In this document: positions 45,593-63,968 of the stretch, piece after piece
Position numbering within the stretch: position 1 is the first letter of the stretch
Layout of the letters: the number at the start of each line of letters is the position of its first letter
Assembly (NCBI GenBank): GCA_963727485.1
Contig: CAVSGM010000011.1
Coordinates: 224,001 to 288,000 of the forward strand
DNA length: 64,000 nt
Reading direction: 5' to 3'
Source of the DNA: an uncultured delta proteobacterium
GTDB lineage: Bacteria > Myxococcota > Myxococcia > SLRQ01
The notes under the pieces: model-generated
Database searches by the model: none
Told to the model about the DNA's origin: nothing
Seen by the model: the letters and a program-made list of their open reading frames with translations, nothing else
Made by a program: the position numbers and the translations under genes

Positions 45593-46334
45593 GGGTGGTA
45601 TCCAGGGGCCTGACGCTCACCGGCGGCCGGCTGTCGTAGGCGACGCTGAAGGCGAGGCCCAGGGAGACGGTGGCGTTGGCCTTGGCGGTCAGCGAGGTCT
45701 CCGAGAGGGCCCGGAGGTCCGCGGGGTCGTCGAGGCGCGGCTGGACGTAGAGGGTCTCGGTGGCGTCGAGGTGCTTCATCACCGCCACCCGCAGGGCCAG
45801 GTAGGTGGAGACGCGCAGATCGGTGGTGACCTTTCCGGCGTCGGGGAGCCCGTCGGAGCGCAGCGCCTCGTGCTCGCCCATGAGCGCCAGCCCCAGGGCC
45901 AGGGCCACCGACTTGCCCCGGAGGACGTCGAAGCGCATCCCGGCGCCGAGGAGCAGGCGCAGCTGGAGCCGCCGGAAGAGGTCGAGCTCGTGCTGGACGA
46001 AGGCCTCGGGGCGCAGGAGGCCCGTCAGGTGGTAGCGGTAGCGCAGGTGCTCCAGGGTGTGGTCGAGGGTGACCCGGCCGCTGGAGATCTCCCGCTCGCC
46101 CTGGGCCAGCCCCAGGATCAGGTGCCGGCCAATCAGCCACTCGCCGGACAGGGCCCCCTGGAGGTCGAGGTACTCGGTGTTGCCGGTGCGCCAGTCCACC
46201 GCGAGCTGCACCGAGCCGTGGAGCCCCGGCTTGCGCTCGCCGGGGAAGCGGGTGAGGACGTTGACGATCTGCGCCGAGGCCGCGGTGGGGGCGGCGGCGC
46301 AGAGGACGAGGCAGAGGAGCGTCAGGCGGCGCAT
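45564..46334 (-). CDS. DUF481-like outer-membrane protein (paralog 1)
   Basis: Signal peptide, QIVN, DWRTGN, C-terminal F. Confidence 0.7.
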   Translation of the reverse strand: MRRLTLLCLVLCAAAPTAASAQIVNVLTRFPGERKPGLHGSVQLAVDWRTGNTEYLDLQGALSGEWLIGRHLILGLAQGEREISSGRVTLDHTLEHLRYRYHLTGLLRPEAFVQHELDLFRRLQLRLLLGAGMRFDVLRGKSVALALGLALMGEHEALRSDGLPDAGKVTTDLRVSTYLALRVAVMKHLDATETLYVQPRLDDPADLRALSETSLTAKANATVSLGLAFSVAYDSRPPVSVRPLDTTLKTTLQVAF

Positions 46335-46390
46335 GGGCGCGGCAGTATAGCCGTGGGTGCCGCGCCGTCACCCTGCGCTGGGGATTCGCC

Positions 46391-47161
46391 TCAGAGGCTC
46401 ACGGACAGGAAGGAGCGCAAGGAGGTGTCGACGGGCTTCACCTGCGGCGGTGGCTGGCCATCGACGTCCACGGTGAAGATCACCCCCAGGTCGAGCCAGT
46501 CGTTCACCTTGCCGAAGAGCGAGGTGTAGGAGACCAGCCGGGCGTCGCCGGGATCGTCCTGGCGGTCCTGGAGGAAGGTGACCTCGCCGAGCTCGAGGTG
46601 GTGGGCCGCGTGGATGCGCAGACCCAGGTAGGTGCTGTAGCGCAGATCGTCGCGAACCAGGCCGGCGCTCGGGAGCCCGTCGTGGAGGAGCCCCGCGTGC
46701 TCCCCCATCAGCCCGAAGCCAAACGAGACCTCGACGTAGTCGCCGACCCGCATGGCGAAGCGCAGGTCCCCACCATAGAGCACCCGCAGCGCCAGGCGCC
46801 GGAAGGGCGCGTACTCGTGCTGGACGAAGAGCTCGGGAGCCAGGAAGTCGTTGACCTGGTAGCGGTAGCGCACCTGCTCCAGGCTGTGCTCCAGGATCAG
46901 CCGGCCGGCGGCGAACTGGTGATCGCCCTCGGCGAGGACGAAGACCGTGTGGCGCTTCTGGTGCCAGCTGCCCCCGAGCATGCCGCCGACCTGGAGGTAG
47001 TCGACGTTCCCGGAGCGCCAGTCCACCGAGAGCTGGAGGTCGCCGTCCACCCCTTTGGGCGGGCGTCCGGGGAGACGGCTGAAGGCGTTGACAATCTGGG
47101 CCGAGGCGGCGGTGGGGGCGGCGAGGCAGAGGGCGATCACCAGGAGCTGGAGGCGGCGCAT
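46391..47161 (-). CDS. DUF481-like outer-membrane protein (paralog 2)
   Basis: Same length (256 aa) and shared blocks (AAPTAASAQIVN, FVQHE, YSTYL/VSTYL) with paralog 1. Confidence 0.7.
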   Translation of the reverse strand: MRRLQLLVIALCLAAPTAASAQIVNAFSRLPGRPPKGVDGDLQLSVDWRSGNVDYLQVGGMLGGSWHQKRHTVFVLAEGDHQFAAGRLILEHSLEQVRYRYQVNDFLAPELFVQHEYAPFRRLALRVLYGGDLRFAMRVGDYVEVSFGFGLMGEHAGLLHDGLPSAGLVRDDLRYSTYLGLRIHAAHHLELGEVTFLQDRQDDPGDARLVSYTSLFGKVNDWLDLGVIFTVDVDGQPPPQVKPVDTSLRSFLSVSL

Positions 47162-47216: not shown

Positions 47217-48518
47217 CTACCAGGTCTGCCCGACGGCGCCGAGGTGGGCGCCGCTGCGGGCGTCGAAGACGTCGAGGCGGGGGATGCGCGCCACGTAGAG
47301 CCGGTGGCCGGCGACGGCGAGGTGGGCGAAGTCCAGCTCGTGGCGGTCGGTCCCGGGGAGGCCGCGCTTCCAGCGCAGCCGGCCGGTGGCCGGGTCGAGG
47401 GCGACGAGCCGCGGCGCCCCGGTCTTCATCGGCACCACCGTGTACACCGCGCCGTCCCCCACGGCGGCCAGGGAGAGGGGCTGGTTCGCCTGGGCGGCGA
47501 AGGGGTCGCCGCCGGGGAGGGTCCGGTGCCACACCACCGCCTGGGTAGTGGGATCGAGGCCGTAGGCCACGGGGACGGCGGTCCCCTGCTTGCGGTCGCC
47601 AAGGACCACGATCGCCTGGGGCGTGGGCACCACCCGGCTCACGTCCACCGGCAGGTCCTTGGGCACCAGCGAGAGGTGGGAGCAGCGATCGTCGCCCTGG
47701 TCCCAGGCCGGGGCGGTGGGGCAGGGCTCGGCGCAGGCCGCGGGCCGGGGCGCGTCGGTGGCCTTGAAGGTGTGGAGGTCCACCTGGTGCCCGGCGCCGT
47801 CGGCGGTGAGGGCCCACACCGCCGGGCGATCGGCACGGGGGGCGCAGAGCGCCTTCACCAGATCGGGCAGGAAGAGCGTGTTCAGGACCCGCCCGGTCCC
47901 CAGGTCGTAGACGTGGAGCCGGCCCTTGGCGTCGCTGGCCACCACCCGGCCCGCGGCCGCCGCCAGCTTCACGGGCCGGGAGTCCGAGCCGAGGGGGGCG
48001 GTGGTCCACAGGGTCGAGAGGCCGTCGACCGAGTAGGCCATCAGGACCACCGGGCGCCCGCTGGTGGAGGTGCTCTCCCGGCTGCGGACCACCAGCACCT
48101 GCCGCCCGCCCCGGCTGCGCCCGATCACCGGCACCCCGGCGCTGTCCGCCTGCACGTTGGAGAAGAGGTAGGAGAGGCGCGTGAGGGAGCCGGCGACCCG
48201 GGAGCCGTCGACCCGGGGCGCGGTGAGCACGAACCAGGCCAGGAGGGCCCCGAGGACCGCTACCGCCACGGCGGCGACGGTGCGGCCCCGGCGGCCGCGA
48301 CGCGGGTGGTGGTCGCGGTAGACGTCGCTCGCGGTCCGGGCGTCGTGACGCTCCAGGTTGGTGCGCGGCGGGCCGGCGGGCGGCGGGGCCGGGGTCCTCG
48401 CGGCGCCCTCGATCTCCACGGAGGTCCCGCAGTAGCTGCAGGTGATGGTGGCGGCGCCGGGGCTCGGCTTGAGGCTGGCCCCGCACCTGGGGCACTCGAG
48501 GGCCTGGGCCTCGGGCAT
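47217..48518 (-). CDS. Zn-ribbon + TM + PQQ-like beta-propeller protein (paralog 1)
   Basis: CPRCG...CSYCG, one TM helix, ALDPATGRLRW repeats. Confidence 0.75.
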   Translation of the reverse strand: MPEAQALECPRCGASLKPSPGAATITCSYCGTSVEIEGAARTPAPPPAGPPRTNLERHDARTASDVYRDHHPRRGRRGRTVAAVAVAVLGALLAWFVLTAPRVDGSRVAGSLTRLSYLFSNVQADSAGVPVIGRSRGGRQVLVVRSRESTSTSGRPVVLMAYSVDGLSTLWTTAPLGSDSRPVKLAAAAGRVVASDAKGRLHVYDLGTGRVLNTLFLPDLVKALCAPRADRPAVWALTADGAGHQVDLHTFKATDAPRPAACAEPCPTAPAWDQGDDRCSHLSLVPKDLPVDVSRVVPTPQAIVVLGDRKQGTAVPVAYGLDPTTQAVVWHRTLPGGDPFAAQANQPLSLAAVGDGAVYTVVPMKTGAPRLVALDPATGRLRWKRGLPGTDRHELDFAHLAVAGHRLYVARIPRLDVFDARSGAHLGAVGQTW

Positions 48519-48519
48519 C

Positions 48520-49782
48520 TCAGCGCTCTCCCAGGGTTCCGACCAGCTTGCCGGTCCTGGCGTCGAGGACGTCGAGGGAGACCATGTGGGCGAAGTAGAG
48601 CCGGCCGCCGGCGAAGCTCAGGTCGCCCTCGTCGGCGAAGTTGGTCTTCCGGGGCATGGGCACCGCCCAGCGGGTCCGGCCGGTGGCCTCGTCGAGGGCG
48701 ATGATCCGGGACGGGCCCTCCTTCATGTCCAGCACGAAGTAGACCGCACCGTCGCCGGCGGCGCTGACGCCGATGGTCTGGCCGGTCTTGGCCGAGTAGG
48801 CGTCGCCGTCGGGGAGGGTGCGCTTCCACCGGAGCTTGCCGGTGCCGGTGTCGAAGCCCGCCGCCATGGGGACCTGGGTGCCCTGGGAGCGGTGGCCCAG
48901 GGCCACCTCCGACGCCCGGTCGCGGACGAGGTCGGTGACCCTCAGGCCCTCGACCTTCGGCGCCTCGTCGAGGTGGCGGCACTTGGGGTTCTGCACCGCC
49001 CACACCGGCCGGCCCCCGCAGCCGAGGGCGCAGGCGGCGGGCTTGGGGGCATCGGTGACCGCGTGGGTGTCGACGTCGAAGGCGTGGCCCTTGTGGTCGG
49101 CGGTGAGGATCCACGCCATGGGCTTCGCCGGGTCGGGCACGCAGAGGGCCTTGGCCCGGTCCTCGAGGAACCGGCTCGCCACCGGGTGGCCGGTGGTGAG
49201 GTCGTCGACCAGGACCCGGCCGTGGTCGTCGGTGAGGATCGCCTTGCCCGCGGCGATCCGGGCGTGGATGACCTGGTAGTCGCTCCACAGCCCCAGGGGC
49301 TTGCTCGCCCACAGGGGCTCGAGGCTCCGAGCGTCGAAGGCCTCGGCGACGATGCGGGTCTTGCCCTGGCCCAGGTGCCGGGTGAGGCCGAGGAGGACCG
49401 GGCGGCCGTCGGGGAGCCGGGCGAGCTGGCTGGGCGCGAGGGCGTCCCACTGCACCAGCTCGCCGCCAGAGGCGACGGTGGGGTCGGGGGCGCGGGCGAC
49501 GGCCCGGGCGGTCCCGGGCGCGGGGGCGCTGCTGCTCATCTCCAGGAAGCCGGCGACCCCGGCACCCACCATCGCCACCACCGCCCCGGCGAGGACGATG
49601 ACGATCCGGGCCCGCTGGCCTTGCGCCCGGAGCTGGGACGGGGCCGCCGGGGGGGCCGCGGGCCGGAGGTCGGCGATCCGCGAGGTGGTGCCGCAGTAGA
49701 CGCAGCGGACGGTGTCGGCGTCAGGGCCGGGGTTCAGGCGGGCGCCGCACTCGGGGCACTCGAGGGGAACGACGTCGGGCAT
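48520..49782 (-). CDS. Zn-ribbon + TM + PQQ-like beta-propeller protein (paralog 2)
   Basis: CPECG...CVYCG, one TM helix, ALDEATGRTRW repeats. Confidence 0.75.
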   Translation of the reverse strand: MPDVVPLECPECGARLNPGPDADTVRCVYCGTTSRIADLRPAAPPAAPSQLRAQGQRARIVIVLAGAVVAMVGAGVAGFLEMSSSAPAPGTARAVARAPDPTVASGGELVQWDALAPSQLARLPDGRPVLLGLTRHLGQGKTRIVAEAFDARSLEPLWASKPLGLWSDYQVIHARIAAGKAILTDDHGRVLVDDLTTGHPVASRFLEDRAKALCVPDPAKPMAWILTADHKGHAFDVDTHAVTDAPKPAACALGCGGRPVWAVQNPKCRHLDEAPKVEGLRVTDLVRDRASEVALGHRSQGTQVPMAAGFDTGTGKLRWKRTLPDGDAYSAKTGQTIGVSAAGDGAVYFVLDMKEGPSRIIALDEATGRTRWAVPMPRKTNFADEGDLSFAGGRLYFAHMVSLDVLDARTGKLVGTLGER

Positions 49783-52817: not shown

Positions 52818-52892
52818 ATCTCGGCTCCCGGCGTTGTCCCCGGACGGATGGGGCGGGAGCATACATGGGCCCCCTGACGGTTGGGATCAAGG

Positions 52893-53945
52893 ATGCCCCC
52901 CGGTCACCGAAGCGCGCGTGTTCTCGCAGGTCCGGCGCTGGCCTGCCTCGCCGCCGCGGCCCTCTTCGGCGCCGCCACCCCGGCGGCCAAGGTCCTCCTC
53001 CGGGGCCTCGGGCCCCTGTCCCTGGCGGGTCTGCTCTACCTCGGCGCCGCGGTGGCGATGATCCCCTGGCTCGGCCGGGGCGCCGACCTGGGCCTGGTCG
53101 ACCGCCGGCAGGCCGGGCGCCTCGCCGGGGCGGTGATCCTCGGGGGGATCGCCGGGCCGGTGCTCCTCCTCCTGGGCCTGGCGCGCCTCCCGGCGGCCTC
53201 GGCGTCCCTGGGCCTCAACCTCGAGCTCCCGGCGACGGCGCTGATCGCCTGGGCCCTCTTCCACGAGCACCTGGGGCGGCGCACCCTCCTCGGCGGGGGC
53301 CTGGCGCTGGCCGCCGGGGCGCTGCTGACCCTCCCGGGGCACCTGGTCCTGGCCCCGGGCCTGGGGCTGGTGGCGCTGGCCTGCGTCGCCTGGGGCCTGG
53401 ACAACAACCTCACCGCGGTCATCGACGCCCTCACCCCGGCGCAGATCACCGCGGTGAAGGGCTCGGTCGCAGGGGCGGTGAACCTCGCCCTCGGCCTCGC
53501 CCTGGAGCACCCGCGCTTCGAGCCGGGGATCGTCGCCGGGGCCCTGGTCGTGGGGGCGCTGGGCTACGGGGCCTCGCTCACCCTCTACATTGGTGGGGCC
53601 CAGCGCCTCGGGGCCACCCGCTCCCAGATGATCTTCGCCGCCGCGCCCTTCATCGGCACGGTGCTGGCGTGGGTCGGCCTCGGGGAGCCGGTGCGGCCGG
53701 TGGAGCTCGGGGCCGGGGTGCTCATGGCCGCGGGGATCGCGGTGATGCTCACCGGCCGCCACGGCCACGTCCACACCCACGACGCCACGGTCCACACCCA
53801 CGGCCACCGCCACGACGACGGCCACCACGACCACGTGCACCCGGGGCTCCCCGCCTGGGTGTGGCACACCCACGCCCACGCCCACCGGGCCTTGACCCAC
53901 ACCCACGGCCACCTGCCGGACCTCCACCACCGGCACGGGCACTGA
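52893..53945 (+). CDS. DMT/EamA-family transporter with His-rich C-terminal tail
   Basis: About 10 TM helices, WGLDNNLT, tail HGHVHTH...[11 protein letters not shown]. Confidence 0.88.
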
Positions 53946-54040: not shown

Positions 54041-55804
54041 ATGAAGCGCCTCTCCGGGCTCGCCTTGGTGGCAGCCGCGGGCCTCGCCCTCGCCATGCAC
54101 TGGGCCGTCGGGGCCCACTTCTTCCAGGGCTGGGAGCTCTCCCTGGGGAGCATCACCTTCCCGGCCCCGCGCTACGGCGCCTTCCTCCTCTCGTGGATGA
54201 CCTTCGGGAGCGTCGCCGCGGTCCTCGCCACCCTCGGGCTCGCTCGCCTCGCCGGTCCGAACCTGGCGCGGACCTTCGAGCGGTTCGCCGCCTACCCCGG
54301 GCGGCGCTTCGTGCCCCTGGCGGCCTTCCTCGCCTTCGCCACCGCGATGCTCGCCCGCACCTGGCTCCTCCACGGCGTGCCCCTCACCGACGACGAGGCC
54401 GCCTACCGGTTCATGGCCCAGGTGCTGGCCGGGGGGCACCTGACCGCCCCGTCCCCGCCGATGAAGCTCTTCTTCGACCGGGGGATGATGATCAACGACG
54501 GGCGCTTCCATGCCCTCTACTTCCTCGGCTGGCCCGCGCTCCTGGCGCCGTGGGTGCTGGTCCACGCCGCGGGCCTCGCCAACGCCGTCTACTCGGCGCT
54601 CACGGTCCCTGCGCTCTACCTCCTCGCCCGGCGTGTCGCCGGCCGGGGCTGGGCCAAGGTGACCGTCCTCCTCTTCGGCGTCTCCCCGATGGTCGCCGTC
54701 GGGGCCGCCGCCCTCGGGTCCCACCCCAGCGAGCTGATGCTCCTCGCCTGGCTCGCCTGGCTCGCCTTCCGCAGCGCCGAGGCCGAGGCGCCCCTCTGGG
54801 CCCACGCCGGGGTCGCGGTGGCCTTCGGGGCCGCGGTCTTCGACCGGCCCTTCACCGCGCTGGGCCTGGGGCTGCCCTTCCTGGTGGTCTGGGCCCTGGG
54901 CCTCCGGCGGCTCTCCGGCCGTCGGCGCCTGGCCGCGGCCGCGGTCTTCGCGGTGCCGGCGGTCCTCCTCGCCGGGGCCTTCTTCGCCGTGAACCTGGTG
55001 CAGAACGGCTCGCCCTCTCACCCTGGGGTACTGGCGCTACTACGCCTACGCCCGGGCCAATGGCTTCCGCTTCTCCCTGTGGCAGCACGCCATCCCCGGC
55101 GGTCACCCGGGCTTCCGCTTCGGAGACCTGGTGGGCGGCACCGCCTCCACCGCGGCCGGACTCCTCCGGTTCTCGGTGGCCTTCCTCGGCTGGCCCTGCT
55201 CGCTGGTCTTCGCCTTCTTCGCCGGTCGGACGCGGGAGACGGAGGTGTACTGGGCCTCGGCGGCCACCTTCGTCGCCGCGCTCCTGCTCACCTCCAACGC
55301 CGGCATCGACACCTACGGACCGGTGCACCTCGCGGAGCTCGCCCTGCCGGTGCTGATCCTCAGCGCCGCGGGCCTGGCGCGCCTCGATCGCTGGCTCGCC
55401 GGCCCGAGCCCGGGCCTCACCCTCGCCGCGGTGCTGGGGCTCTCGGGGGCCACGGCCGTGGGCTACCTGCCGGTCCGGCTCTCCGCGGTGTCCGCCATCG
55501 CCAGTCGGATTGCGGCGCCGTTCCAGGCGGTCGCGGGCATCCCCCGGGGTGAGCCGGCGGTGGTGTTCGCGCCGCGGCCCTTCGTGCGCTATTGCCACGG
55601 GCCCCAGGGCTTCGTCTTCTTCATGCCGACCAACGACCCGGGTCTCACCAACCCCGTGATCTGGGCGAACCATTCGGACCCCGGAAGGACCAGGCCCTCA
55701 TGGCCCACTTCCCCGGACGCCAGGGCTGGATCCTCGCCTGGGACCATTGTACGCCGCTGATCGTCTCCCTCGAACGGGCCCGGGCCGCGGCGCCGGACCC
55801 ATGA
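54041..55804 (+). CDS. GT-C (ArnT/PMT-like) integral membrane glycosyltransferase; frameshifts near 55020 and 55685
   Basis: Polytopic protein; PLTDDEAAYRF acidic motif. The stitched 3' end forms an ATGA overlap with the next gene. Confidence 0.7.
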
Positions 55805-56862
55805 CCCCCGTGCCATCCTCGTCGTCGTCCCGGAACCTCGCCATGTCCCGCACCTCGATCCTCGTCACCGGCGGCGCCGGCTACCTCGGCGCCATCCTCG
55901 TGCCCAAGCTCCTCGACGCCGGCCACCGGGTCACCGTCCTCGACGCCCTCTTCTTCGGCGGGAAGCCCCTGGCCGCGGTGGCCGATCGCGAGGGCTTCGA
56001 GCTGGTGGCCGGGGACATCCGGGACACCGCCACCGTCGACGCCGTCCTCGCCCGGGGCTTCGACGGGGTCATCCACCTCGCCGCCATCTCCAACGACCCC
56101 TGCTCCGACCTCGACCCCGAGCTCACCCGGGCGGTCAACCACGACGCCACCGGGCACCTGATGCGCCAGGCCAAGGCCGCCGGGGTGCGCCGCTTCCTCT
56201 ACGCCTCGTCGGCGAGCGTCTACGGGATCAAGGACACCCCCGACGTCACCGAGGACCTGCCGCTGGAGCCCATCACCCTCTACGCCCGGTACAAGGCCGA
56301 GGGGGAGACGGTGCTCAACGGCCTCACCGACGACGGCTTCTGCGGGGTGTCGGTGCGGGCGGCGACGGTGTGCGGGTGGTCTCCGCGCCTGCGCCTGGAC
56401 CTCACCATCAACATCCTCACCCACCACGCCCTGACCAACGGCCGGATCCGGGTCTTCGGGGGCCGCCAGATGCGCCCCAACATCCACATCGAGGACCTCA
56501 CCGACTTCTACGTGAGGCTGCTCGACATCGAGGCCGAGAAGGTCAACGGCCGGGCCTTCAACGTCTCCACCGAGAACGCCACGGTGATGGCCCTGGCCGA
56601 GATGATCCGCGATCGGGTCGACCCGGCCATCGCCATCGACGTGGTGCCCACCGACGACCACCGCAGCTACCACCTCTCCGCCGCCCGGGCCCGGGCCGAG
56701 CTGGGCTTCGCCCCCCGCCACACCCTGGGCGACGCGGTGGACGACCTCAAGCGCGCCTACGCCGAGGGCCGGGTCCCGGACCCCGAGTCGCGGATCTACC
56801 GGAACGTGCAGCTGATGAAGCACGCGCCGGCGGTGTGGCAGAACCTGGGGGGCGCGCGGTGA
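55801..56862 (+). CDS. NAD-dependent epimerase/dehydratase (extended SDR)
   Basis: VTGGAGYLG, HLAAISND, ASSASVYG, YARYK. Start at 55801 or 55843. Confidence 0.92.
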   Translation: MTPVPSSSSSRNLAMSRTSILVTGGAGYLGAILVPKLLDAGHRVTVLDALFFGGKPLAAVADREGFELVAGDIRDTATVDAVLARGFDGVIHLAAISNDPCSDLDPELTRAVNHDATGHLMRQAKAAGVRRFLYASSASVYGIKDTPDVTEDLPLEPITLYARYKAEGETVLNGLTDDGFCGVSVRAATVCGWSPRLRLDLTINILTHHALTNGRIRVFGGRQMRPNIHIEDLTDFYVRLLDIEAEKVNGRAFNVSTENATVMALAEMIRDRVDPAIAIDVVPTDDHRSYHLSAARARAELGFAPRHTLGDAVDDLKRAYAEGRVPDPESRIYRNVQLMKHAPAVWQNLGGAR

Positions 56863-57959
56863 CCGTGATACGGGTGCCCTACGTCGACCTCGCGGCCCAG
56901 AACCGGCCGCTGAAGGCCGAGCTCCTGGAGGCGGTGGGCCGGGTCCTCGACCACGGGTGGCTGGTCAACGGCCCCGAGGTCGCCGACCTGGAGCGGCGCC
57001 TCGCCGAGCGACTCGGGGGCGGGCACGTGGTCGGCGTCGCCTCGGGGACCGCGGCCCTGGTCCTGGCCCTGCGCCTCCACGGCATCGGCCCCGGTGACGA
57101 GGTGGTGGTCCCCAGCCACTCCTTCGTGGCCACGGCCTCGGCGGTGGTCCTCGCCGGGGCGCGCCCGGTCTTCGCCGACGTCGACGAGGAGACCATGGTC
57201 CTCGACGCCGCCGCGGCCGAGCGGGCGATCACCGAGCGCACCCGGGCGGTGCTGCCGGTGCACCTCAACGGCTTCGCCGCCGACCTCGACGCCTTCACCG
57301 CGCTGTGCCGCGACCGGGACCTGGTGCTCCTCGAGGACTGCGCCCAAGCCCTGGGCGCCGCCTGGAAGGGCCGCCCGGTGGGCACCTTCGGCACCGGGTG
57401 CTTCAGCCTCCACCCCCTCAAGCCCCTGGCCGCCGCCGGGGACGCGGGCTTCGTCTGGGTCTCCGAGGCGGCGCAGGCCGAGACCCTGAAGCGTCTGCGC
57501 AACCTCGGCCTCGCCGACCGGGACCACCTGGCGCAGGTCAGCGGCAACGATCGCCTGGACACGGTGCAGGCGGCGATGCTGGGGGTGAAGCTCGGGCACC
57601 TCGACGCCTGGCTCGCCGCCCGCCGGGCCCACGCCGAGGCCTACCGCGCCGCCCTGGAGGGCCTGGTGCGGCTGCCCCCGGCGCGCCCCGAGTGCCAGCC
57701 GAGCCACAGCGTCTTCTGCGTCCGCCACCCCAGGCGCGACGCGCTCCTCGAGGGCCTGCGCGCCCGGGGCATCGACGCCAAGGTCCACTACCCGGTGGCC
57801 ATCCACCAGCAGGCCCCCTTCGCCGGGGACCCGCCGCCGTCGCTCCCGGTCACCGAGCAGGTGGTGCAGGAGATCGTGAGCCTCCCGGTGAGCCCCGAGC
57901 TCGACGTCGCCGGGCGCGAGGCGGTGATCGCGGCGGTGCAGGAGACCCTCGCGGCATGA
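56859..57959 (+). CDS. DegT/DnrJ/EryC1/StrS sugar aminotransferase
   Basis: SGTAAL, GPGDEV, EDCAQA, FSLHPLKPL (PLP lysine); GTGA overlap. Confidence 0.93.
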   Translation: MTVIRVPYVDLAAQNRPLKAELLEAVGRVLDHGWLVNGPEVADLERRLAERLGGGHVVGVASGTAALVLALRLHGIGPGDEVVVPSHSFVATASAVVLAGARPVFADVDEETMVLDAAAAERAITERTRAVLPVHLNGFAADLDAFTALCRDRDLVLLEDCAQALGAAWKGRPVGTFGTGCFSLHPLKPLAAAGDAGFVWVSEAAQAETLKRLRNLGLADRDHLAQVSGNDRLDTVQAAMLGVKLGHLDAWLAARRAHAEAYRAALEGLVRLPPARPECQPSHSVFCVRHPRRDALLEGLRARGIDAKVHYPVAIHQQAPFAGDPPPSLPVTEQVVQEIVSLPVSPELDVAGREAVIAAVQETLAA

Positions 57960-59497
57960 CCGAGGCCTCGGAAAAGATCGTCACCCCCGAGGCCCTGGCC
58001 CGGATCCGCGCGGATCTCGAGGCCCAGGGCCGCACCGTGGTCCAGGCCCACGGCTGCTTCGACATCGTCCACCCCGGGCACATCCGCTACCTGCGCTTCG
58101 CCCGGGACCAGGGCGACGTCCTGGTGGTGAGCGTGAGCGCCGACGACGTGGTGGGCAAGGGCGCCGACCGCCCCTACATCAACGAGGACCTGCGCCTGGA
58201 GAACCTCGCGGTCCTGGAGTTCGTGGACTACGTGGTCCTCGATCACCACGCCTGGGCGGGGCCGATCCTGGAGACGGTCAGGCCCGACGTCTACGTGAAG
58301 GGCAAGGAGTACGAGACCGGCGGCGACCCGCGCTTCCTCCAGGAGAAGGACCTGGTCGAGGGCTACGGGGGCCGGGTGATCTTCGGCTCCGGCGACGTGG
58401 TGTTCTCCTCCACCGCCATCATCGACCGCTTCCGCGAGCAGTTCCGCCTCGACGCCGAGAAGACAAGGTTCTTCTGCCGGCGCCACGGGGTCACCCGCGC
58501 CGCGGTGGACGGCGCCCTCCGGGCCATCGGGGAGGCGCGGATCCTGGTCCTCGGCGATCCCATCCTCGACCGTCACATCCACTCGGAGATGGCCACCGTG
58601 GCCGCCGAGGCGCCGGTGCTCTCGGTGGTGCCGATGCACCAGGACACCTACCTCGGCGGCGGGGCCCTCATCGCCCGGCAGCTCGCCAACCTCGGGGCGA
58701 AGGCGGGCTACCTCACGGTCCTGGGTCGGGACGCCGAGGCCGAGGACTTCGCCGAGGGGCTCGCCGCCGGCGGGGTGACCCTCCACCGCCTCGAGGCCCA
58801 TCACCGGCCGGTGTTCGTGAAGACCCGGTACCTGGTCGACGGGAACAAGGTGTTCAAGGTCGACGAGGGGGCCTACTCGCCCCTGGCCGCGAGCGACGCC
58901 GCCGAGCTGGTCGCGCGCCTCGAGGCGTCGCTTGCGGGCTACGACGCGCTGGTGGTCACCGACTTCGGCTACGGGCTCTTCGGCGCCGAGCTCACCGAGG
59001 CCCTGCCCCGGATCTGCGCCGCCCAGGGCAAGCCCTACTACGTCGACGTGAGCCACAGCCGGCGCACCAACATCCTCAAGTTCCGTGGTCCGCGGCTGGC
59101 GACCCCCACCGAGGACGAGCTGCGCTTCGCCTTCGGCGATCCCGAGAGCGGGCTGTCCAACCTCGCCAGCCGCTACTACCGGGAGTCGGGCGCCGAGCAG
59201 CTGGTGGTGACCCTGGGCAAGCGCGGGGCCCTGCGCTTCGAGCCCGGGGAGGCCGGGGCCCGGCTGCGCACCGACCACCTCCCGGCCTTCGCCACCTACT
59301 CCGTCGACCCCATCGGCGCCGGGGACGTGTTCCTCGCCGGCGCCAGCGCCGCCGACGTCGCCCGGGCGCCCATGCCCGTGGGCATGTACCTGGGCAGCGC
59401 CCTGGCGGCGCTCCACGTGGCCCACCTGGGCAACGACCCGGTGCGGATGATTGACCTCCAGGCGTGGCTCGACGCCCGCCCCGATCTCGCGCCATGA
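57956..59497 (+). CDS. Bifunctional nucleotidyltransferase (N-terminal) / PfkB-type sugar kinase (C-terminal), HldE/RfaE-like
   Basis: HGCFDIVHPGH, KGADRP, YVKGKEY; C-terminal VVTLGKRG and DPIGAGDVF. Confidence 0.88.
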   Translation: MTEASEKIVTPEALARIRADLEAQGRTVVQAHGCFDIVHPGHIRYLRFARDQGDVLVVSVSADDVVGKGADRPYINEDLRLENLAVLEFVDYVVLDHHAWAGPILETVRPDVYVKGKEYETGGDPRFLQEKDLVEGYGGRVIFGSGDVVFSSTAIIDRFREQFRLDAEKTRFFCRRHGVTRAAVDGALRAIGEARILVLGDPILDRHIHSEMATVAAEAPVLSVVPMHQDTYLGGGALIARQLANLGAKAGYLTVLGRDAEAEDFAEGLAAGGVTLHRLEAHHRPVFVKTRYLVDGNKVFKVDEGAYSPLAASDAAELVARLEASLAGYDALVVTDFGYGLFGAELTEALPRICAAQGKPYYVDVSHSRRTNILKFRGPRLATPTEDELRFAFGDPESGLSNLASRYYRESGAEQLVVTLGKRGALRFEPGEAGARLRTDHLPAFATYSVDPIGAGDVFLAGASAADVARAPMPVGMYLGSALAALHVAHLGNDPVRMIDLQAWLDARPDLAP

Positions 59498-60495
59498 GCG
59501 CCCGCGCCCGACGGGTGGCGCTGGGGGTCGTGGGCCTGGGGGTCTCGGCGCTCTTCCTCTGGCTGGCCCTGCGCAAGGTGCCGCTGGCGGCGGCCTGGAA
59601 CCGGATCGCCACGGTGAGCCTGGGGATCCTGGCGCTCTCCCTGGTCACCAAGCTCGTGGGCTTCGGGATGATGACGGGCCGCACCCGGACCCTCCTGAAG
59701 CCGGTGGCGCCGCTGGGCGTCGGGCCGGTGTTCCGCTCGGTGCTCCTGGGTTTTGCCGCCAACAACGTGCTCCCCGCCCGTCTCGGTGACGTGGTGCGCG
59801 TCGACTACCTGGGGCGACGCAGCGGCGCCGGTTTCGGGCCCTGCCTCGCGGTGGTCGCCTTCGAGCGGGTGGTCGACACCTTCTGCCTGGTGCTGCTCCT
59901 CGCCTGCGCCCTCCCGGTGCTCCTCGGCCGGGTGCACCCGGGCGTGGGCCTGGCGCTCCTGGTCGCCGGTGCGCTCCTGGCGATGGCCGCGGCGGTGATC
60001 GTCAGCCACCATCCCGACGCCTTCGTCCGCCTCGGCCGCCGCGTCGCCGGGGTCCTCGGCAGGGCCTTCGCCGACCGGGTGGAGCCGCTCCTCGCCCGCT
60101 TCGCCACCGGTCTGGCCGCGGTCTCCAGCACCCGTTCGGTGCTGGCGGTGATGGCCTTCTCGTTGGGCTACTGGGGCAGCTCCCTGGGGTCGGTGGCCCT
60201 GTGGATCCTGGCGTTCGGCCTGCAGCTTCCCTGGTATGCGCCCCTGGTGGTGCTGCTCTTCATCTCCCTGGGCACCCTGCTTCCGGCGTCGCCGTCGTTC
60301 GTGGGCACCTACGAGTACTTCGCCGCCGCCGGGCTCAAGCTCCTGGGGGTGGGGGCCACCGCGGCGACATCGTTCGCCCTGGTGGGCCACGTGGTGGCGG
60401 TGGTCCCCTTCACCCTCGTGGCGCTGCCGGTGCTGGTGCCCGACCTGATGCGCCGGCGGCGCCGGGAGGCCTCCCTGGGCGAGGCGCCGGGCTAG
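59494..60495 (+). CDS. LPG-synthase-TM / flippase-like membrane protein
   Basis: GFAANNVLPARLGDVVR, ERVVD, PASPSFVGTYE. Confidence 0.85.
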   Translation: MSARARRVALGVVGLGVSALFLWLALRKVPLAAAWNRIATVSLGILALSLVTKLVGFGMMTGRTRTLLKPVAPLGVGPVFRSVLLGFAANNVLPARLGDVVRVDYLGRRSGAGFGPCLAVVAFERVVDTFCLVLLLACALPVLLGRVHPGVGLALLVAGALLAMAAAVIVSHHPDAFVRLGRRVAGVLGRAFADRVEPLLARFATGLAAVSSTRSVLAVMAFSLGYWGSSLGSVALWILAFGLQLPWYAPLVVLLFISLGTLLPASPSFVGTYEYFAAAGLKLLGVGATAATSFALVGHVVAVVPFTLVALPVLVPDLMRRRRREASLGEAPG

Positions 60496-61514
60496 GCGCC
60501 GGGCGCCTCGGCGATGAGCGGCTCCACGTCGATTGGCGGTACATGTGGAGGCCGGCTCGGAGCCCGTCCCGAGCCACGGCGTCCGCCACCGCCTCGCCCC
60601 GCAGGGCCCGGAGCGCCGCCAGGGGCAGGTTCACCCCCGCGTGGGCGTAGAGCCAGGGGCGCCCGGCGAGACGGGGGTTGATTCTCGGTCACCCGCGGGG
60701 CGCCGTCGGCGTCGCCTCGGAGGTCGACGCTGTAGACCCCGTGGGGCCGGTCGTCGATGGCCCGCACCGCACGCTCGGCGACGGCGTCGACCTCGGGCTC
60801 ACGCACGGTGCTGCAGAGCTTCACCTGGCCGGTCACCCCGGTGGGGACCAGGTCGGCGAGGAGGTACGACAGGCGCTCCATGGAGGCGCAGGCCACCCGC
60901 TGACCCTCGACGAAGACCGCCGACCAGTTGAAGTTCCGACCGGGGAGGAGGGTCTGGGCCATCCAGGGCTCCCCGGACGCGCCCCAGGCCGCCAGCCACC
61001 GCCGGGCCTCGGTGGCGTCGGCTGCGGCGAGGCTGCCCTTGCCGCTGGTGCCCACGCAGGGGCGGATCCACAGGGGGCTGCCCAGGGCCTCGAAGATGGC
61101 CTCGAGCTGGGCGGGGTCCCGGAAGGTCCGGGTCGCCGGGAAGGCCCCCGAGCCCGCCCCGGCGGCCTGGGTCCGGGCCTTGTCGAGGAGGAGGTCGAGC
61201 ACCGGGAGCGGCGCCAGCGCCGAGGGCACCGGGAGCGGGCGCCCCACCTGGCTCAACGCCGCCACCTCGAGGTCGAGGCCGACGAAGACGAAGTCCACCC
61301 CGGCCGCGGCCTCGCAGAGGGCGTCGACGTAGGCCCCGGCGTCCGCGCCCGCCGAGGGGAGTGACACCACCTCGTCGCAGAACCGCTCGCCGAGCCGCCG
61401 TCCCCAGGGGCTGGCGTCGGCACCGACGATCCGCAGGGTCGGGTCCTGGCGCAGGCACCGCGCCATGTCGATCCCCGGGCTCCCGCCGCAGCTGCTCACC
61501 AGCACCGTGGTCAT
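60492..61514 (-). CDS. ATP-grasp ligase; probably two compensating frameshifts (~60680, ~60533)
   Basis: DKART, PLWIRP..GTSGKG, QTLLPG, YSVDL. Restoring the frame gives TEINPRLAGRPWLYAHAGVNLP. Confidence 0.78.
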   Translation of the reverse strand: MTTVLVSSCGGSPGIDMARCLRQDPTLRIVGADASPWGRRLGERFCDEVVSLPSAGADAGAYVDALCEAAAGVDFVFVGLDLEVAALSQVGRPLPVPSALAPLPVLDLLLDKARTQAAGAGSGAFPATRTFRDPAQLEAIFEALGSPLWIRPCVGTSGKGSLAAADATEARRWLAAWGASGEPWMAQTLLPGRNFNWSAVFVEGQRVACASMERLSYLLADLVPTGVTGQVKLCSTVREPEVDAVAERAVRAIDDRPHGVYSVDLRGDADGAPRVTENQPPSRRAPLALRPRGGEPAPGGAPGPAGRGGGGRRGSGRAPSRPPHVPPIDVEPLIAEAPGA

Positions 61515-62989
61515 GGGTCCTCCCAGGGCACCAGGCGCCCGTCGCGAAACACGGGGACCACCTGGTGGGTGTCGAGCTGGGCGCAGTAGCGGACGTCCTC
61601 GGCGTAGCCGAGGCGGACCAGGTTGGCCCCCGAAGCCCCCCGGAAGAAGTCAGCCTCGAGACCGCGGGAGGCCCGCGGGACCGGGGCCTGGAGACGGGCG
61701 GTCGGCCCCATCGCCGCCAGGATCTCGCTCGCCGCCAGCTCATCCTCGAGGCACGCCTGGTTGTTGCGGCCGGCCATCAGCAGGGTGACCGGGCAGTCGC
61801 GCGCCTCGGCGAGGGCCAGGGCCCGGCGGCCCACGCTCCCGGCGTTGAGGGTGGTGCCGATGAGGACCAGGGCGTCCTCGCCGGCCGCCTCCAGGAGGCA
61901 CTCGGTGCCGTTGGTGGTGGTCAGCACCAGGGACCTGCCGGCGTAGGCCTCGCCCCGGGCGAGGAGCTCGGTGGGGCTGTTGCCGTGATCCAGCGTGGGG
62001 ATCTTGCGGCCCCCGCGCTCTCCGGCGGTGACGTCCCCGCGACACTCCTCGACCGAGGCCACCGCCCGCACCGAGCGCATCCCCATCTGAAGCGCGGTGA
62101 CGATGGTGGCGCTGGCCCGCAGGGCGTCGATGAGGACCACCACCCCGCCCCGGCCGCGGGCGGCGACGGCGCCGCTGACCCCCAGCTCCAGGAAGACCTT
62201 CACCCCGGGCATCTGGAAGTCCCGGAAGGTGTCCCCCCGGAGCCCGGTGCGCAGGGTCGCCAGGGAGAGGGCGTCGTCCGGGGCGATGTTGCCGAGGTTC
62301 ACCTGGTTGCCCAGGCGGCGGATCAGCCACACCTGCTGCGATTTGCGGGGGGCCTCGAATACCACCGCCGCCCGCCCCACGGCCTCGGTGATTCGGGCCA
62401 CCAGCTCCTCGATGGGCTCACCGGCCTCGTCGAAGATCCCCACGGTGCCCGACTCCCGGGCCTCGAGGATCACCCTCTCGGCCCCGGCGTCGAGCTCGGC
62501 CCGGAGGGCGGACACCCGCTCGGCGAGGCCAAGGCGGGCGTCGGCCTCGTGCTCCTTCTTGCCCACCTCGCTCCACACCGTGAGCCCCCGGGCCCGGGCG
62601 CGGTCGATGAGCCCGAGCTTCTCGTCCTCGGTCATGGGGTGGACGCCGTTGGAGACCTCCACCATGGGGAAGCCCAGCCGGACGGCCTCGTCGAGAAAGG
62701 CGTCGGCCCGGCCCTGGGCCAGGGCCACCTCGAGGAAGGTGCCGCCGGTGCAGGCCCGCACCTGGTGGGCCGCGAGGATGGCGAGCTTCTCCCGGACGAT
62801 CGTCTCGGGCTGGAGCCGTGCCGTCGCCCACCCGAGCTTGACCACGTCGATCCAGGGGTGGCTCACCGAGAGGAGGTCGGCGAGCCGCCCCGGACCCAGG
62901 CCCTTGTCGAGAACGGAGGTGATCCCGGTGAGGCGCGGCTTGGCCGGCAGCTCGGGGACGTCGATCATGGGGAACGCGTGACGACTCAT
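61511..62989 (-). CDS. Phosphosulfolactate synthase (ComA) - 2-phosphosulfolactate phosphatase (ComB) fusion
   Basis: ComA: KPRLTGITSVLDKG, KLGWAT, GGTFLE, EVSNG, SEVGKK, EARESG, FEAP, VNLGNI, LRTGLRGDT. ComB: IDALRASATI, AGERGG, GNSP, LTTTNGT, LED. Confidence 0.9.
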   Translation of the reverse strand: MSRHAFPMIDVPELPAKPRLTGITSVLDKGLGPGRLADLLSVSHPWIDVVKLGWATARLQPETIVREKLAILAAHQVRACTGGTFLEVALAQGRADAFLDEAVRLGFPMVEVSNGVHPMTEDEKLGLIDRARARGLTVWSEVGKKEHEADARLGLAERVSALRAELDAGAERVILEARESGTVGIFDEAGEPIEELVARITEAVGRAAVVFEAPRKSQQVWLIRRLGNQVNLGNIAPDDALSLATLRTGLRGDTFRDFQMPGVKVFLELGVSGAVAARGRGGVVVLIDALRASATIVTALQMGMRSVRAVASVEECRGDVTAGERGGRKIPTLDHGNSPTELLARGEAYAGRSLVLTTTNGTECLLEAAGEDALVLIGTTLNAGSVGRRALALAEARDCPVTLLMAGRNNQACLEDELAASEILAAMGPTARLQAPVPRASRGLEADFFRGASGANLVRLGYAEDVRYCAQLDTHQVVPVFRDGRLVPWEDP

Positions 62990-63228
62990 GGGATCTCGCC
63001 CTTGCGGAGCACGAAGACGTGCGCCATGGCGAGCGGCCAGCGTTCGCCGAGGAGCCGGTGGCCGGCGGTGGCGACGAGCTCGTTGGCGACCTGGAGACCC
63101 CGCCGCCAGTCGGGCTGGCGGCCGGATCGCGAGGGCACCACCGAGGTCAGGTGGAGGCCGGCGACCACCTCCGCCACCTGGGCGTATACCCGGGGGCGGG
63201 TCCCGGCCCCGCTGACCCGGCCGGTCAC
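62986..63228 (-). CDS. Small hypothetical protein (80 aa)
   Basis: Fills the gap exactly, with 4-bp overlaps to both neighbours (GTGA and ATGA). Confidence 0.55.
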   Translation of the reverse strand: MTGRVSGAGTRPRVYAQVAEVVAGLHLTSVVPSRSGRQPDWRRGLQVANELVATAGHRLLGERWPLAMAHVFVLRKGEIP

Positions 63229-63968
63229 TCCTCTCTACCTCGCTCCAGGAGCAGGTTGTTCCGGTAGTGGGCGACCGAGCGGTGACCCACGTAGACGTCC
63301 CGCACCGCCTTGAGGATCGACCTGGGGCGGAAGGCCTTGGAGCTGCCCTGGGTCCGGCCCCGGGCCACGAACCCGACCTCGCCGATGCGGAGCTTCGGGT
63401 CCCGGAGCAGGGCCTTGGCGATGAGCTCGGCGTTGAAGGCGTGCCCCGAGGACACCACCTCGATTCCCCGGAGGCACCGGGCGCGGTAGAGCTTCATCCC
63501 GTTGAGGTAGCGGTAGGGGAAGCCGTAGAGGAAGGCGCTCACGCTGGTGAAGGACTGGGAGGCGATGCGCCGGGGGATGGTGCGGATCACCGGGTTCTTG
63601 AGGTAGCCGAGGATCAGGTCGTAGCCGGCCCGCACCGCGAGGAAGTCCCGGATGGACTCGAAGAGGAACTCGTTGTCACCGGGGAGCACGGTCACCCAGC
63701 TGCTGGGGTCCACGGCCTCGAGGGCCTGGAGCACCGAGCGGCCGACGCCGAGGTTCTCCGGGTTCTGGCGCATCCGCACCCCGGGGTGCCGCTCGCAGAG
63801 CGCGCGCATCCGGTCCGCGGTCCGGTCGGCGGAGCCGTCGTCGACCAGGACCAGCTCCAGGTCCACGTCCAGGGTGGGGGCCACGGCGTGCACGGCGTCG
63901 ACCGTGTCCTCGATGTTCTCCGCCTCGTTCAGACAGGGGATGATCACGGTGAGGAGGTCACGGGGCAT
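63225..63968 (-). CDS. GT2 glycosyltransferase, polyprenol-phosphate (DPM1/ArnC-like) type
   Basis: VIIPCLNE, VDDGSAD, NLGVG, R..GSSK. Confidence 0.88.
   Translation of the reverse strand: MPRDLLTVIIPCLNEAENIEDTVDAVHAVAPTLDVDLELVLVDDGSADRTADRMRALCERHPGVRMRQNPENLGVGRSVLQALEAVDPSSWVTVLPGDNEFLFESIRDFLAVRAGYDLILGYLKNPVIRTIPRRIASQSFTSVSAFLYGFPYRYLNGMKLYRARCLRGIEVVSSGHAFNAELIAKALLRDPKLRIGEVGFVARGRTQGSSKAFRPRSILKAVRDVYVGHRSVAHYRNNLLLERGREE

What the first reader, a model, noticed from the sequence alone, without database searches (positions are those of the whole stretch)
54041..63968. Arn-like envelope modification pathway predicted to install a sulfolactyl-amino sugar
Seen: two convergent, tightly overlapped operons meeting at 60492-60495. 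Plus strand: GT-C transferase, SDR epimerase/dehydratase, DegT aminotransferase, nucleotidyltransferase/kinase, flippase-like protein. Minus strand: GT2, small ORF, ComA-ComB fusion, ATP-grasp ligase. Established: ComA plus ComB convert PEP and sulfite to sulfolactate; ATP-grasp enzymes join carboxylates to amines; the Arn pathway runs keto-sugar formation, transamination, N-acylation, GT2 loading on polyprenyl-P, flipping and GT-C transfer. Inference: each Arn step has a counterpart here, with N-formylation replaced by ATP-grasp ligation of sulfolactate, giving a sulfonated anionic sugar on LPS, lipid or protein. No comC/D/E is visible, which argues against coenzyme M synthesis. The minus operon continues beyond the window.
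Basis: partly seen in the sequence, partly recalled or inferred. Interest (0 to 1): 0.8.

Follow-up and report, generated by a model that had tools for sequence, protein, structure and literature searches.

The report
Sulfolactate tag for a surface sugar
Two facing gene rows likely build an amino sugar, cap it with the sulfur-bearing acid sulfolactate and move it on a lipid carrier onto the cell surface, a predicted decoration that related bacteria appear to replace with a plain sulfate group.

Summary
The nine genes are real and match their labels. Corrections: the minus operon ends at 63968, since hisD follows on the other strand; the small ORF is the last 80 aa of a methyltransferase; the GT-C and ATP-grasp genes each carry two offsetting frameshifts.

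All nine genes recur together in a Gemmatimonadota genome, and both arms co-occur unlinked in three more genomes. Of 19 well-flanked ComA-ComB loci, 15 hold a ligase plus glycan genes. The ATP-grasp forms its own clade, often on the same contig as ComAB (20 of 38, sister group 0 of 25). New here: the sugar/GT2 module also occurs without ComAB, and all 3 intact such loci have a sulfotransferase beside the GT2.

Best reading (0.58): sulfolactate is amide-linked to an NDP-amino sugar and delivered by GT2, flippase and GT-C. It works like Arn but is not Arn. Coenzyme M synthesis is unsupported. Sugar, acceptor, step order and sulfite source are unknown, and nothing is assayed. The scan reached this idea earlier on other DNA.

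The parts
54041..55804 (+). GT-C fold membrane glycosyltransferase, acceptor unknown; two offsetting frameshifts (about 55013 and 55680) in this assembly
   Evidence: PMT_2 E 5e-5; DDE motif invariant in 6 of 6 aligned orthologs; model of ortholog L025 (pLDDT 60) matches ALG12/STT3/AglB/ArnT/PglB about equally, E 1e-6 to 1e-4; one public contig lacks a base at 55013
55843..56862 (+). Extended SDR, predicted NDP-sugar oxidase that forms the keto sugar
   Evidence: Epimerase E 7e-39; best PDB hit 6vo6, E 7e-38, recalled as C. jejuni Cj1427 GDP-heptose 4-dehydrogenase; YxxxK present
56859..57959 (+). DegT-family sugar aminotransferase
   Evidence: PF01041 E 9e-97; PLP lysine motif SLHPLK; 2oga, WbpE and QdtB rank above ArnB
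57956..59497 (+). HldE-like nucleotidyltransferase + PfkB kinase fusion (domain order reversed), predicted to make the NDP-sugar
   Evidence: CTP_transf_like and PfkB; HldE models below cut-off; PDB 4e84, 5x9q
59494..60495 (+). AglD2/YbhN-type flippase-like membrane protein
   Evidence: PF03706 E 4e-43, TIGR00374 above cut-off
60492..61514 (-). ATP-grasp ligase of a ComA-linked clade; two offsetting frameshifts (about 60690 and 60535) put about 50 residues out of frame
   Evidence: NF009402 E 1e-9; ortholog model pLDDT 91, ATP-grasp fold, 2pn1 TM 0.70; clade support 100/99; EINPRLAGRP motif
61511..62989 (-). ComA-ComB fusion (phosphosulfolactate synthase + phosphatase), intact
   Evidence: M. 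jannaschii ComA 1qwg E 3e-52; K145, aligned to its Lys137, invariant in 35 of 35
62986..63228 (-). 80-aa C-terminal remnant of a SAM methyltransferase that is whole in relatives
   Evidence: 62% to L006:12493-13344; whole in L006, L009, L025; no other close copy in the genome
63225..63968 (-). GT2 of the polyprenyl-phosphate glycosyltransferase type, no membrane helices; first gene of the minus operon
   Evidence: PF00535; PDB 5mlz Dol-P-Man synthase E 6e-8; hydropathy scan

Best explanation
The ComA-ComB fusion likely makes sulfolactate from PEP and sulfite, the neighbouring ATP-grasp enzyme likely joins it by an amide bond to an amino sugar predicted to come from the kinase/nucleotidyltransferase, SDR and DegT genes, and the GT2, flippase-like and GT-C proteins would carry that sugar on a lipid phosphate to an unknown acceptor outside the inner membrane. 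Shown: gene identities, conserved catalytic motifs, operon structure, recurrence and co-inheritance in other genomes. From established family chemistry: ComA/ComB reactions, ATP-grasp carboxylate activation, DegT transamination, GT2/GT-C relay. Inferred: that sulfolactate is the ATP-grasp's acid and the DegT product its amine. The order is open: phosphosulfolactate may be ligated first and ComB act afterwards, because sister ATP-grasps sit beside HAD phosphatases. The sugar skeleton (heptose-type enzymes, but no gmhA found), the amine position and the acceptor are unknown.
For: (1) All nine genes lie within 11.3 kb in L006, a Gemmatimonadaceae genome, at 35-63% identity in another arrangement. 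(2) G043, G044 and G045 hold ComAB, the clade ATP-grasp and close HldE-like orthologs (52-60%) in separate loci; G045 keeps SDR-DegT-HldE-flippase in the window's order. (3) Of 44 loci with a full fusion, 19 have at least 2.5 kb on both sides; 15 of 19 hold a ligase plus glycan genes: this ATP-grasp clade 4, three other ATP-grasp groups 2+2+5, AMP-ligase with ACP 1, asparagine-synthase-like 1. Unrelated acid-activating systems recur beside one acid-making enzyme. (4) Reverse test: 20 of 38 clade ATP-grasps on contigs of at least 5 kb share an exact contig length with a top-120 ComAB fusion, against 0 of 25 in the sister group; the matches are spread across the ComAB tree. (5) The ATP-grasp also travels with a different keto-sugar/amine pair, Gfo/Idh/MocA + DegT (L005, L038). 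Sister ATP-grasps sit with a deacetylase or amidohydrolase, a HAD and a GT2, which points to a sugar amine as acceptor. (6) Of 9 GT2 orthologs (53-64%), 5 adjoin ComAB, 1 adjoins a transposase-split clade ATP-grasp, and the other 3 have a sulfotransferase within 1.1 kb. A motif and profile scan of all 167 loci (95 stretches of at least 10 kb) found that family otherwise only as one motif hit in L094 and one weak hit in L133. (7) An arginine four residues after the E-x-N-x-R motif is invariant in 57 of 57 clade members and is Thr in 87% of 45 sister proteins, a candidate sulfonate contact. (8) Precedents from passages read: a ComA cassette is proposed to supply the 2-sulfoacetyl amide of misaugamycin B (PMC9136965); an ATP-grasp gene is required for a sulfonated peptidylamido sugar on C. 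difficile flagellin (PMC5207246).
Against: No enzyme or product has been assayed. Coupling is not strict: of three genomes found through the ATP-grasp alone, ComA was found in 1 (G1306, elsewhere) and not in G705 or G1369; these three carry a variant motif and G705's gene is split. 18 of 38 clade proteins had no contig-length match, and that test is indirect and seeded with ComAB-adjacent genes. A 42-row soil branch of the fusion family shows no such match, and 12 of 44 fusion loci sit beside a sulfide dehydrogenase gene, dut or coaBC with no ligase. The 15 loci are not independent (one near-duplicate pair, one family of five). L007, L025 and L046 have the ligase but no DegT within the DNA held. 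This genome shows CysD/CysN-C but no CysH, no NIR_SIR, no gmhA and no ortholog of the HAD that flanks HldE in relatives, so sulfite supply and sugar supply are unexplained. Four frameshifts and a truncated methyltransferase could mean this copy is decaying.
Confidence: 0.58

Rival explanations
1. The pathway is as described in relatives, but this genome's copy is decaying and no longer makes the product.
For: Two frameshifts each in GT-C and ATP-grasp, a methyltransferase cut to 80 aa, and no HAD ortholog. Only 1 of 16 control genes showed a frame switch. G705 shows that such loci do decay.
Against: Each pair of shifts is one base gained and one lost, and the ATP-grasp pair lies in short A runs. 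One public contig lacks the base at 55013, and another spans it with no mismatch and one gap (single low-depth contigs). CysD and CysN of this assembly are also frameshifted. The control method misses offsetting pairs. The other six full-length genes have no stops.
Confidence: 0.14
2. ComAB makes free sulfolactate as a sulfite sink or solute, and the ATP-grasp acylates the amino sugar with another small acid; the adjacency is historical.
For: The fusion sits next to a flavocytochrome c sulfide dehydrogenase gene with no ligase or glycan gene in a soil branch. Clade ATP-grasps exist in genomes where ComA was not found. This genome has an SQR-like gene with DsrC and DsrE-like neighbours.
Against: ComAB lies between GT2 and the ligase with overlapping codons. 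Several unrelated ligases recur beside ComAB in glycan loci. Sulfotransferases take the same position beside the GT2.
Confidence: 0.13
3. Reverse polarity, as in C. jejuni Cj1438: the ATP-grasp activates a sugar carboxylate and adds a sulfonated amine (cysteate or taurine) derived from sulfolactate.
For: Cj1438's ATP-grasp domain amidates glucuronate with a phosphorylated amine, then Cj1435 removes the phosphate (PMC11800379 passages). This is the same ligase + phosphatase logic.
Against: It needs oxidation and transamination of sulfolactate; no Ldh_2/ComC was found, DegT's closest structures act on NDP-keto sugars, and no uronate-forming gene lies in the window or L006.
Confidence: 0.07
4. 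The sulfolactyl sugar is made, but ends as a membrane glycolipid or small molecule and not as a decoration of a surface polymer or protein.
For: AglD2/YbhN-type proteins accompany glycosylated-phospholipid operons such as gpgSDF (PMC12713373 passages). The GT-C differs between loci (window type, DUF2079, YfhO-like).
Against: A GT-C-like gene accompanies the module in most loci with enough DNA, and the GT2 is of the polyprenyl-phosphate type.
Confidence: 0.06
5. The fusion starts coenzyme M synthesis.
For: ComA and ComB are its first two steps in methanogens (PMC9457059 passages).
Against: No Ldh_2/ComC or ComD match in a 93%-complete genome; no Xcb-type gene in the locus; glycan context throughout.
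Confidence: 0.02

Closest known systems
Arn (L-Ara4N) lipid A modification pathway (steps from established knowledge)
   Same: Keto-sugar formation, DegT transamination, N-acylation of the NDP-sugar, GT2 loading on a lipid phosphate, flipping, GT-C transfer.
   Different: No gene reaches an Arn family cut-off. No formyltransferase or deformylase; the acyl group would stay and be anionic, not be removed to leave a cation. Flippase is AglD2/YbhN-type, GT2 has no membrane helices, and the sugar is built in the locus by an HldE-like fusion.
ComA/ComB of methanogen coenzyme M synthesis and XcbB of bacteria (PMC9457059, passages)
   Same: Phosphosulfolactate synthase and phosphatase domains with conserved core residues.
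   Different: Fused in one chain; no ComC/ComD found; placed between a GT2 and a ligase.
misNOPQ cassette of misaugamycin B (PMC9136965, passages)
   Same: A phosphosulfolactate synthase proposed to feed a sulfonated acyl group into an amide.
   Different: There the acyl is 2-sulfoacetyl, activated by acyl-CoA ligase/ACP and put on a peptide; here ComB and an ATP-grasp are present and the acceptor is predicted to be a sugar amine.
C. difficile type B flagellin sulfonated peptidylamido sugar (PMC5207246, passages)
   Same: A sugar aminotransferase gene and an ATP-grasp gene in a locus making a sulfonated N-acyl amino sugar; the ATP-grasp mutant lacks it.
   Different: No ComA/ComB named among its genes in the passages read; cytoplasmic flagellin glycosylation without a GT2/flippase/GT-C relay; peptidyl linker.
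C. jejuni Cj1438/Cj1435 amidation and Cj1427 GDP-heptose 4-dehydrogenase (PMC11800379, PMC10680097, passages)
   Same: ATP-grasp plus phosphatase tailoring of a surface glycan; SDR that releases a 4-keto NDP-sugar.
   Different: Cj1438 activates the sugar's carboxylate and adds an amine; the link of PDB 6vo6 to Cj1427 is recalled, not confirmed by a call.

Membership tests
Arn pathway | ArnA formyltransferase/UDP-GlcA decarboxylase | tested here: not met
   SDR scores 23.7 bits against NF008872 (cut-off 294); no formyltransferase domain in the locus
Arn pathway | ArnB aminotransferase | tested here: not met
   215.5 bits against NF008658 (cut-off 631); 2oga, WbpE and QdtB rank above ArnB
Arn pathway | ArnC membrane GT2 | tested here: not met
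   24.9 bits against NF007986 (cut-off 529); 247 aa with no predicted membrane helix
Arn pathway | ArnD deformylase | tested here: not met
   none among the nine genes; rest of the genome not searched for it
Arn pathway | ArnE/F-type flippase | tested here: not met
   LPG_synthase_TM/TIGR00374 protein instead
Arn pathway | GT-C transferase acting on lipid A | tested here: inconclusive
   GT-C fold met, but ArnT ranks 9th among near-equal matches of a pLDDT-60 model; acceptor not testable
ComA phosphosulfolactate synthase | Family match and conserved active-site lysine | tested here: met
   PF02679 273 bits (cut-off 25); TIGR03849 270 (cut-off 280); K145 aligns to M. jannaschii Lys137 and is invariant in 35 of 35; the lysine's role is recalled
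ComB phosphatase | Family match | tested here: met
   PF04029 145 bits (cut-off 26); below the TIGR00298 equivalog cut-off, 122 against 175
Coenzyme M synthesis (methanogen route) | ComC and ComD in the genome | tested here: not met
   no PF02615 and no TIGR03845 match, controls rang; genome 93% complete
Coenzyme M synthesis (methanogen or Xcb route) | ComE; XcbA/C/D/E in the genome | not tested
   none in the locus; genome not searched
ATP-grasp carboxylate-amine ligases | Fold and nucleotide/metal motifs | tested here: met
   ortholog model pLDDT 91 matches 2pn1, PurK, PylC, L-amino acid ligases; DK, QE and E-x-N-x-R motifs conserved
ATP-grasp carboxylate-amine ligases | Uses sulfolactate and a sugar amine | not testable with these tools
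   context only
ADP-heptose (HldE) pathway | GmhA and GmhB partners | tested here: not met
   no TIGR00441 match and no tblastn hit with SIS or GmhB-like queries in the genome; relatives have a HAD or GlpX phosphatase beside the fusion

The most novel reading that the evidence does not exclude
Uncultured Myxococcota, Gemmatimonadota and Acidobacteriota share a lipid-carried amino sugar, possibly an amino-heptose, whose job is to display a strong sulfur anion. The anion comes from swappable modules: a sulfate ester from a PAPS sulfotransferase, or a sulfatase-proof N-sulfolactyl sulfonate from ComAB and a dedicated ATP-grasp clade. This would give bacterial ComA/ComB a role in glycan synthesis and add a new N-acyl group to bacterial glycans, perhaps on proteins.
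Probability: 0.35. Interest if true: 0.85.

Novelty: new variant of a known kind. Interest (0 to 1): 0.7.

Why it matters
Many bacteria that make no coenzyme M carry comA/comB without a known use. This locus and its relatives point to one: supplying a sulfonated acyl group for surface glycans. A search for six spellings of sulfolactyl/sulfolactamide gave 0 papers, and the listings of seven other searches showed no such glycan; the library lacks most subscription journals. A C-S sulfonate stays charged at any pH and cannot be removed by sulfatases, so it could shield against phage glycanases or cationic agents differently from sulfate or phosphate. The claim is directly testable: the soluble enzymes are small, intact orthologs are in hand, and the sulfotransferase-bearing loci give a natural comparison.

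Tried and rejected
Public runs: no RNA holder listed. Contigs of 7 of the 9 listed DNA runs were laid and showed no indel row at 55680, 60535 or 60690, and no listed piece bridged them, so those three shifts are unresolved. Promoter/terminator scan: nothing above shuffles. Plasmid collection: no match to the ATP-grasp at E 1e-15, so no cultured model was found there. PDB sequence search of the ATP-grasp: 0 hits. A ComB-ATP-grasp fusion (P0121) was set aside as evidence of a natural fusion because it contains out-of-frame stretches; it shows adjacency only. Close relatives: 0 of 4 same-family genomes and 2 of 40 relatives matched ComAB, both with unfused ComA. The clade ATP-grasp (E below 1e-100) is rare: 1 of 401, 2 of 401, 1 of 401 and 4 of 331 sampled genomes, centres included. 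Septacidin (PMC9978623 passages) was considered as a heptosamine model and rejected as a close match: its oxidase is a GMC enzyme. The Cj1427 structure paper was not held, and PMC10680097 does not name 6vo6. The glycan NMR review (PMC9912281, first 300,000 characters searched) has no 'sulfon' hit. The upstream EamA gene (52881-53945) was considered as an ArnE/F stand-in and dropped: two-domain, His-rich tail, and not tested for co-occurrence. The GT2 tree is poorly resolved; the grouping of G521's GT2 with two ComAB-type GT2s has only 88/82 support. No complex prediction was run. No supplementary files were read; those of PMC9136965 (its proposed sulfoacetyl route) may bear on the step order.
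Full report
Observation. The window is G000:C11:224001-288000 of a 5.55-Mb, 73% GC, 93%-complete assembly. Stop/start overlaps couple SDR, DegT, the HldE-like fusion and the flippase-like gene on the plus strand, and GT2, the small ORF, ComA-ComB and the ATP-grasp on the minus strand; the rows overlap by four bases at 60492-60495. Three corrections follow. The minus row begins at 63968, and the next gene starts at window 64101 on the plus strand and reads as hisD. The 80-aa ORF is the C-terminal piece of a methyltransferase that is whole (about 280-295 aa) in L006, L009 and L025. GT-C and ATP-grasp each have one base gained and one lost relative to orthologs. One public contig lacks the base at 55013, and CysD and CysN of this assembly are also shifted, so assembly error is likely. 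The other three sites were not resolved, and only 1 of 16 control genes showed a frame switch.

What the enzymes are. ComA-ComB is an intact 492-aa fusion; the residue aligned to M. jannaschii Lys137 is invariant in 35 of 35 sequences. About a hundred full-length fusions at 54-70% identity head a list of 1230 hits. The ligase ortholog folds with pLDDT 91 and matches ATP-grasp structures. The SDR's best solved relative is 6vo6, which I recall as Cj1427; that enzyme oxidises GDP-heptose to the 4-keto sugar (PMC10680097 passages). The DegT is closer to 2oga, WbpE and QdtB than to ArnB. The fusion at 57956 resembles heptose kinase and nucleotidyltransferase domains, and relatives have a HAD or GlpX phosphatase next to it. 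No gmhA or GmhB-like gene was found in this genome, so the sugar skeleton stays open. The GT2 resembles Dol-P-Man synthase and has no membrane helix. The membrane protein at 54041 has a GT-C fold, but a pLDDT-60 model does not separate ArnT from STT3/AglB or ALG12. PF03706 proteins are predicted, not proven, flippases (PMC5898192 and PMC12713373 passages).

Are the two rows one system? L006 (Gemmatimonadaceae) has all nine genes within 11.3 kb in another order. L025 has GT-C, methyltransferase, GT2, ComAB and ligase. G043, G044 and G045, all found through ComAB, hold the clade ligase and HldE-like orthologs at 52-60% in other loci, and G045 keeps SDR-DegT-HldE-flippase in the window's order.

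Is ComAB tied to acyl transfer onto sugars? Among loci L005-L104, 44 hold a full fusion and 19 have at least 2.5 kb on both sides. Of these, 15 hold a ligase and glycan genes, 1 glycan genes only (its ligase lies elsewhere in G044) and 3 a housekeeping context. The ligases are of several kinds: four ATP-grasp groups, an AMP-ligase with ACP and acyltransferase, and one asparagine-synthase-like gene, the weakest case. Two shorter loci pair an AMP-ligase with an AAC(3)-family transferase. These loci are not independent. In the reverse direction, the window's ligase belongs to a clade with 100/99 support and a clear score gap. Of 38 members on contigs of at least 5 kb, 20 share an exact contig length with one of the 120 listed ComAB proteins, against 0 of 25 for the sister group. 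The test is indirect and its seed came from ComAB-adjacent genes. The sister ligases sit with a WbmS-like deacetylase or amidohydrolase, a HAD and a GT2. That pattern suggests a freed sugar amine, a phosphorylated acid and later dephosphorylation, so ComB may act after ligation. A clade-specific invariant arginine follows the E-x-N-x-R motif.

The swap. Searches with the SDR and the GT2, blind to ComA, gave three loci with the GT2 ortholog plus HldE-like, HAD, SDR and DegT genes but no ComAB or clade ligase: G1280, G521 and G1590. ComA was not found in G1280; the other two genomes were not searched for it. All three have a Sulfotransfer_3 gene within 1.1 kb of the GT2, and two also have a WbqC-like gene. 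The G521 sulfotransferase shows no BLAST match to the other two. A motif and profile scan of all 167 loci found this family elsewhere only as one motif hit in L094 and one weak hit in L133; the profile came from these three proteins and may miss distant ones. So 8 of 9 GT2 orthologs sit beside a gene that can supply a sulfur oxyanion, and the ninth beside a broken clade ligase. This shows that the sulfolactate arm is accessory, and it supports a sulfur-anionic sugar as the product by a route independent of the Arn analogy. It rests on three loci.

Against. Of three genomes found through the ligase alone, ComA was found only in G1306, in another locus; these three carry a variant motif, and G705's gene is split by a Mutator transposase. 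A soil branch of the fusion lies beside a sulfide dehydrogenase gene without ligase, so the fusion has other uses or a dispersed pathway. The genome has CysD/CysN-C but no CysH and no NIR_SIR match; an SQR-like gene with DsrC and DsrE-like neighbours is a possible sulfite source. The lipid A cluster on C9 has its own GT2/PMT_2 pair, which lowers the odds that lipid A is this system's acceptor.

Comparison with known systems. It works like Arn in logic but fails the family tests (no deformylase, different flippase). Coenzyme M synthesis lacks ComC and ComD here, and no SuyB-family lyase was found. Two published cases come close, both read as passages: the ComA cassette proposed for the 2-sulfoacetyl amide of misaugamycin B (PMC9136965) and the ATP-grasp needed for the sulfonated peptidylamido sugar of C. 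difficile flagellin (PMC5207246). No paper describing a sulfolactylated glycan appeared in eight searches (listings only), in a library without most subscription journals. Five earlier notes of this scan reach the same idea on other genomes; I read them after forming my view and they are not independent evidence.

Verdict. A real, conserved, uncharacterised envelope-glycosylation locus. Most likely (0.58) it installs an N-sulfolactyl amino sugar through a lipid-carrier relay. It is a new variant of a known kind; interest 0.70.

Noticed in passing
L031:8311-11467 and L026-L028, L033-L035, L040, L054: A soil branch of the ComA-ComB fusion follows a flavocytochrome c sulfide dehydrogenase gene (with a small CxxCH cytochrome upstream in L031) and faces dut-coaBC, with no ligase or glycan gene; possibly a sulfite sink tied to sulfide oxidation.
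   Followed up: partly
L044, L058, L049, L053, L074, L076, L083: ComAB fusions with other ATP-grasp groups inside NeuB/cytidylyltransferase/DegT loci, suggesting sulfolactyl groups on nonulosonic acids.
   Followed up: partly
L032:5139-11476, L042, L051, L030: ComAB beside AMP-ligase + ACP + acyltransferase, or AMP-ligase + AAC(3)-family transferase: a carrier-based route to the same kind of product.
   Followed up: partly
L138, L140, L142, L143, L144: Sister ATP-grasp cassette in genomes of the class of G045: WbmS-like deacetylase or amidohydrolase, ATP-grasp, HAD phosphatase, GT2; likely swaps an N-acetyl group for another hydroxy-acyl group.
   Followed up: partly
L146:1458-6454, L166:8438-10341, L167:8105-10461: Sulfotransferase (with WbqC-like gene in two) beside the GT2 ortholog where ComAB and the ligase are missing.
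   Followed up: yes
L120:7517-11507 (G022): A same-class relative has methyltransferase, separate ComA and ComB, and a different 449-aa ATP-grasp-like gene in one row.
   Followed up: partly
L131/L132 (G000:C9:177000-197000): Lipid A/LPS core cluster with split HldE, two GT9 heptosyltransferases and a GT2 + PMT_2 pair after lpxB, although no gmhA was found in the assembly.
   Followed up: partly
L159:7843-10026 (G000:C2): SQR-like flavoprotein, DsrC-like and DsrE-like genes directly after a V/A-type ATPase operon.
   Followed up: no
L133 (G000:C3:178371-181400): CysD and CysN-C, both frameshifted in the assembly, at the head of an exopolysaccharide locus with a weak sulfotransferase-like hit; no CysH found.
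   Followed up: partly
window 52881-53945: Two-domain EamA transporter with a His-rich C-terminal tail just upstream of the GT-C gene; possibly metal-related.
   Followed up: no
window 45564-47161: Two tandem 256-aa paralogous predicted outer-membrane proteins, followed at 47217-49782 by two tandem zinc-ribbon/beta-propeller-like proteins (labels from reading the translations).
   Followed up: no
L145:6233-10758 (G1306): Separate ComA and ComB in a row with gamma-glutamyltranspeptidase and a glutathionylspermidine-synthase-like ATP-grasp: another possible ComA use.
   Followed up: no
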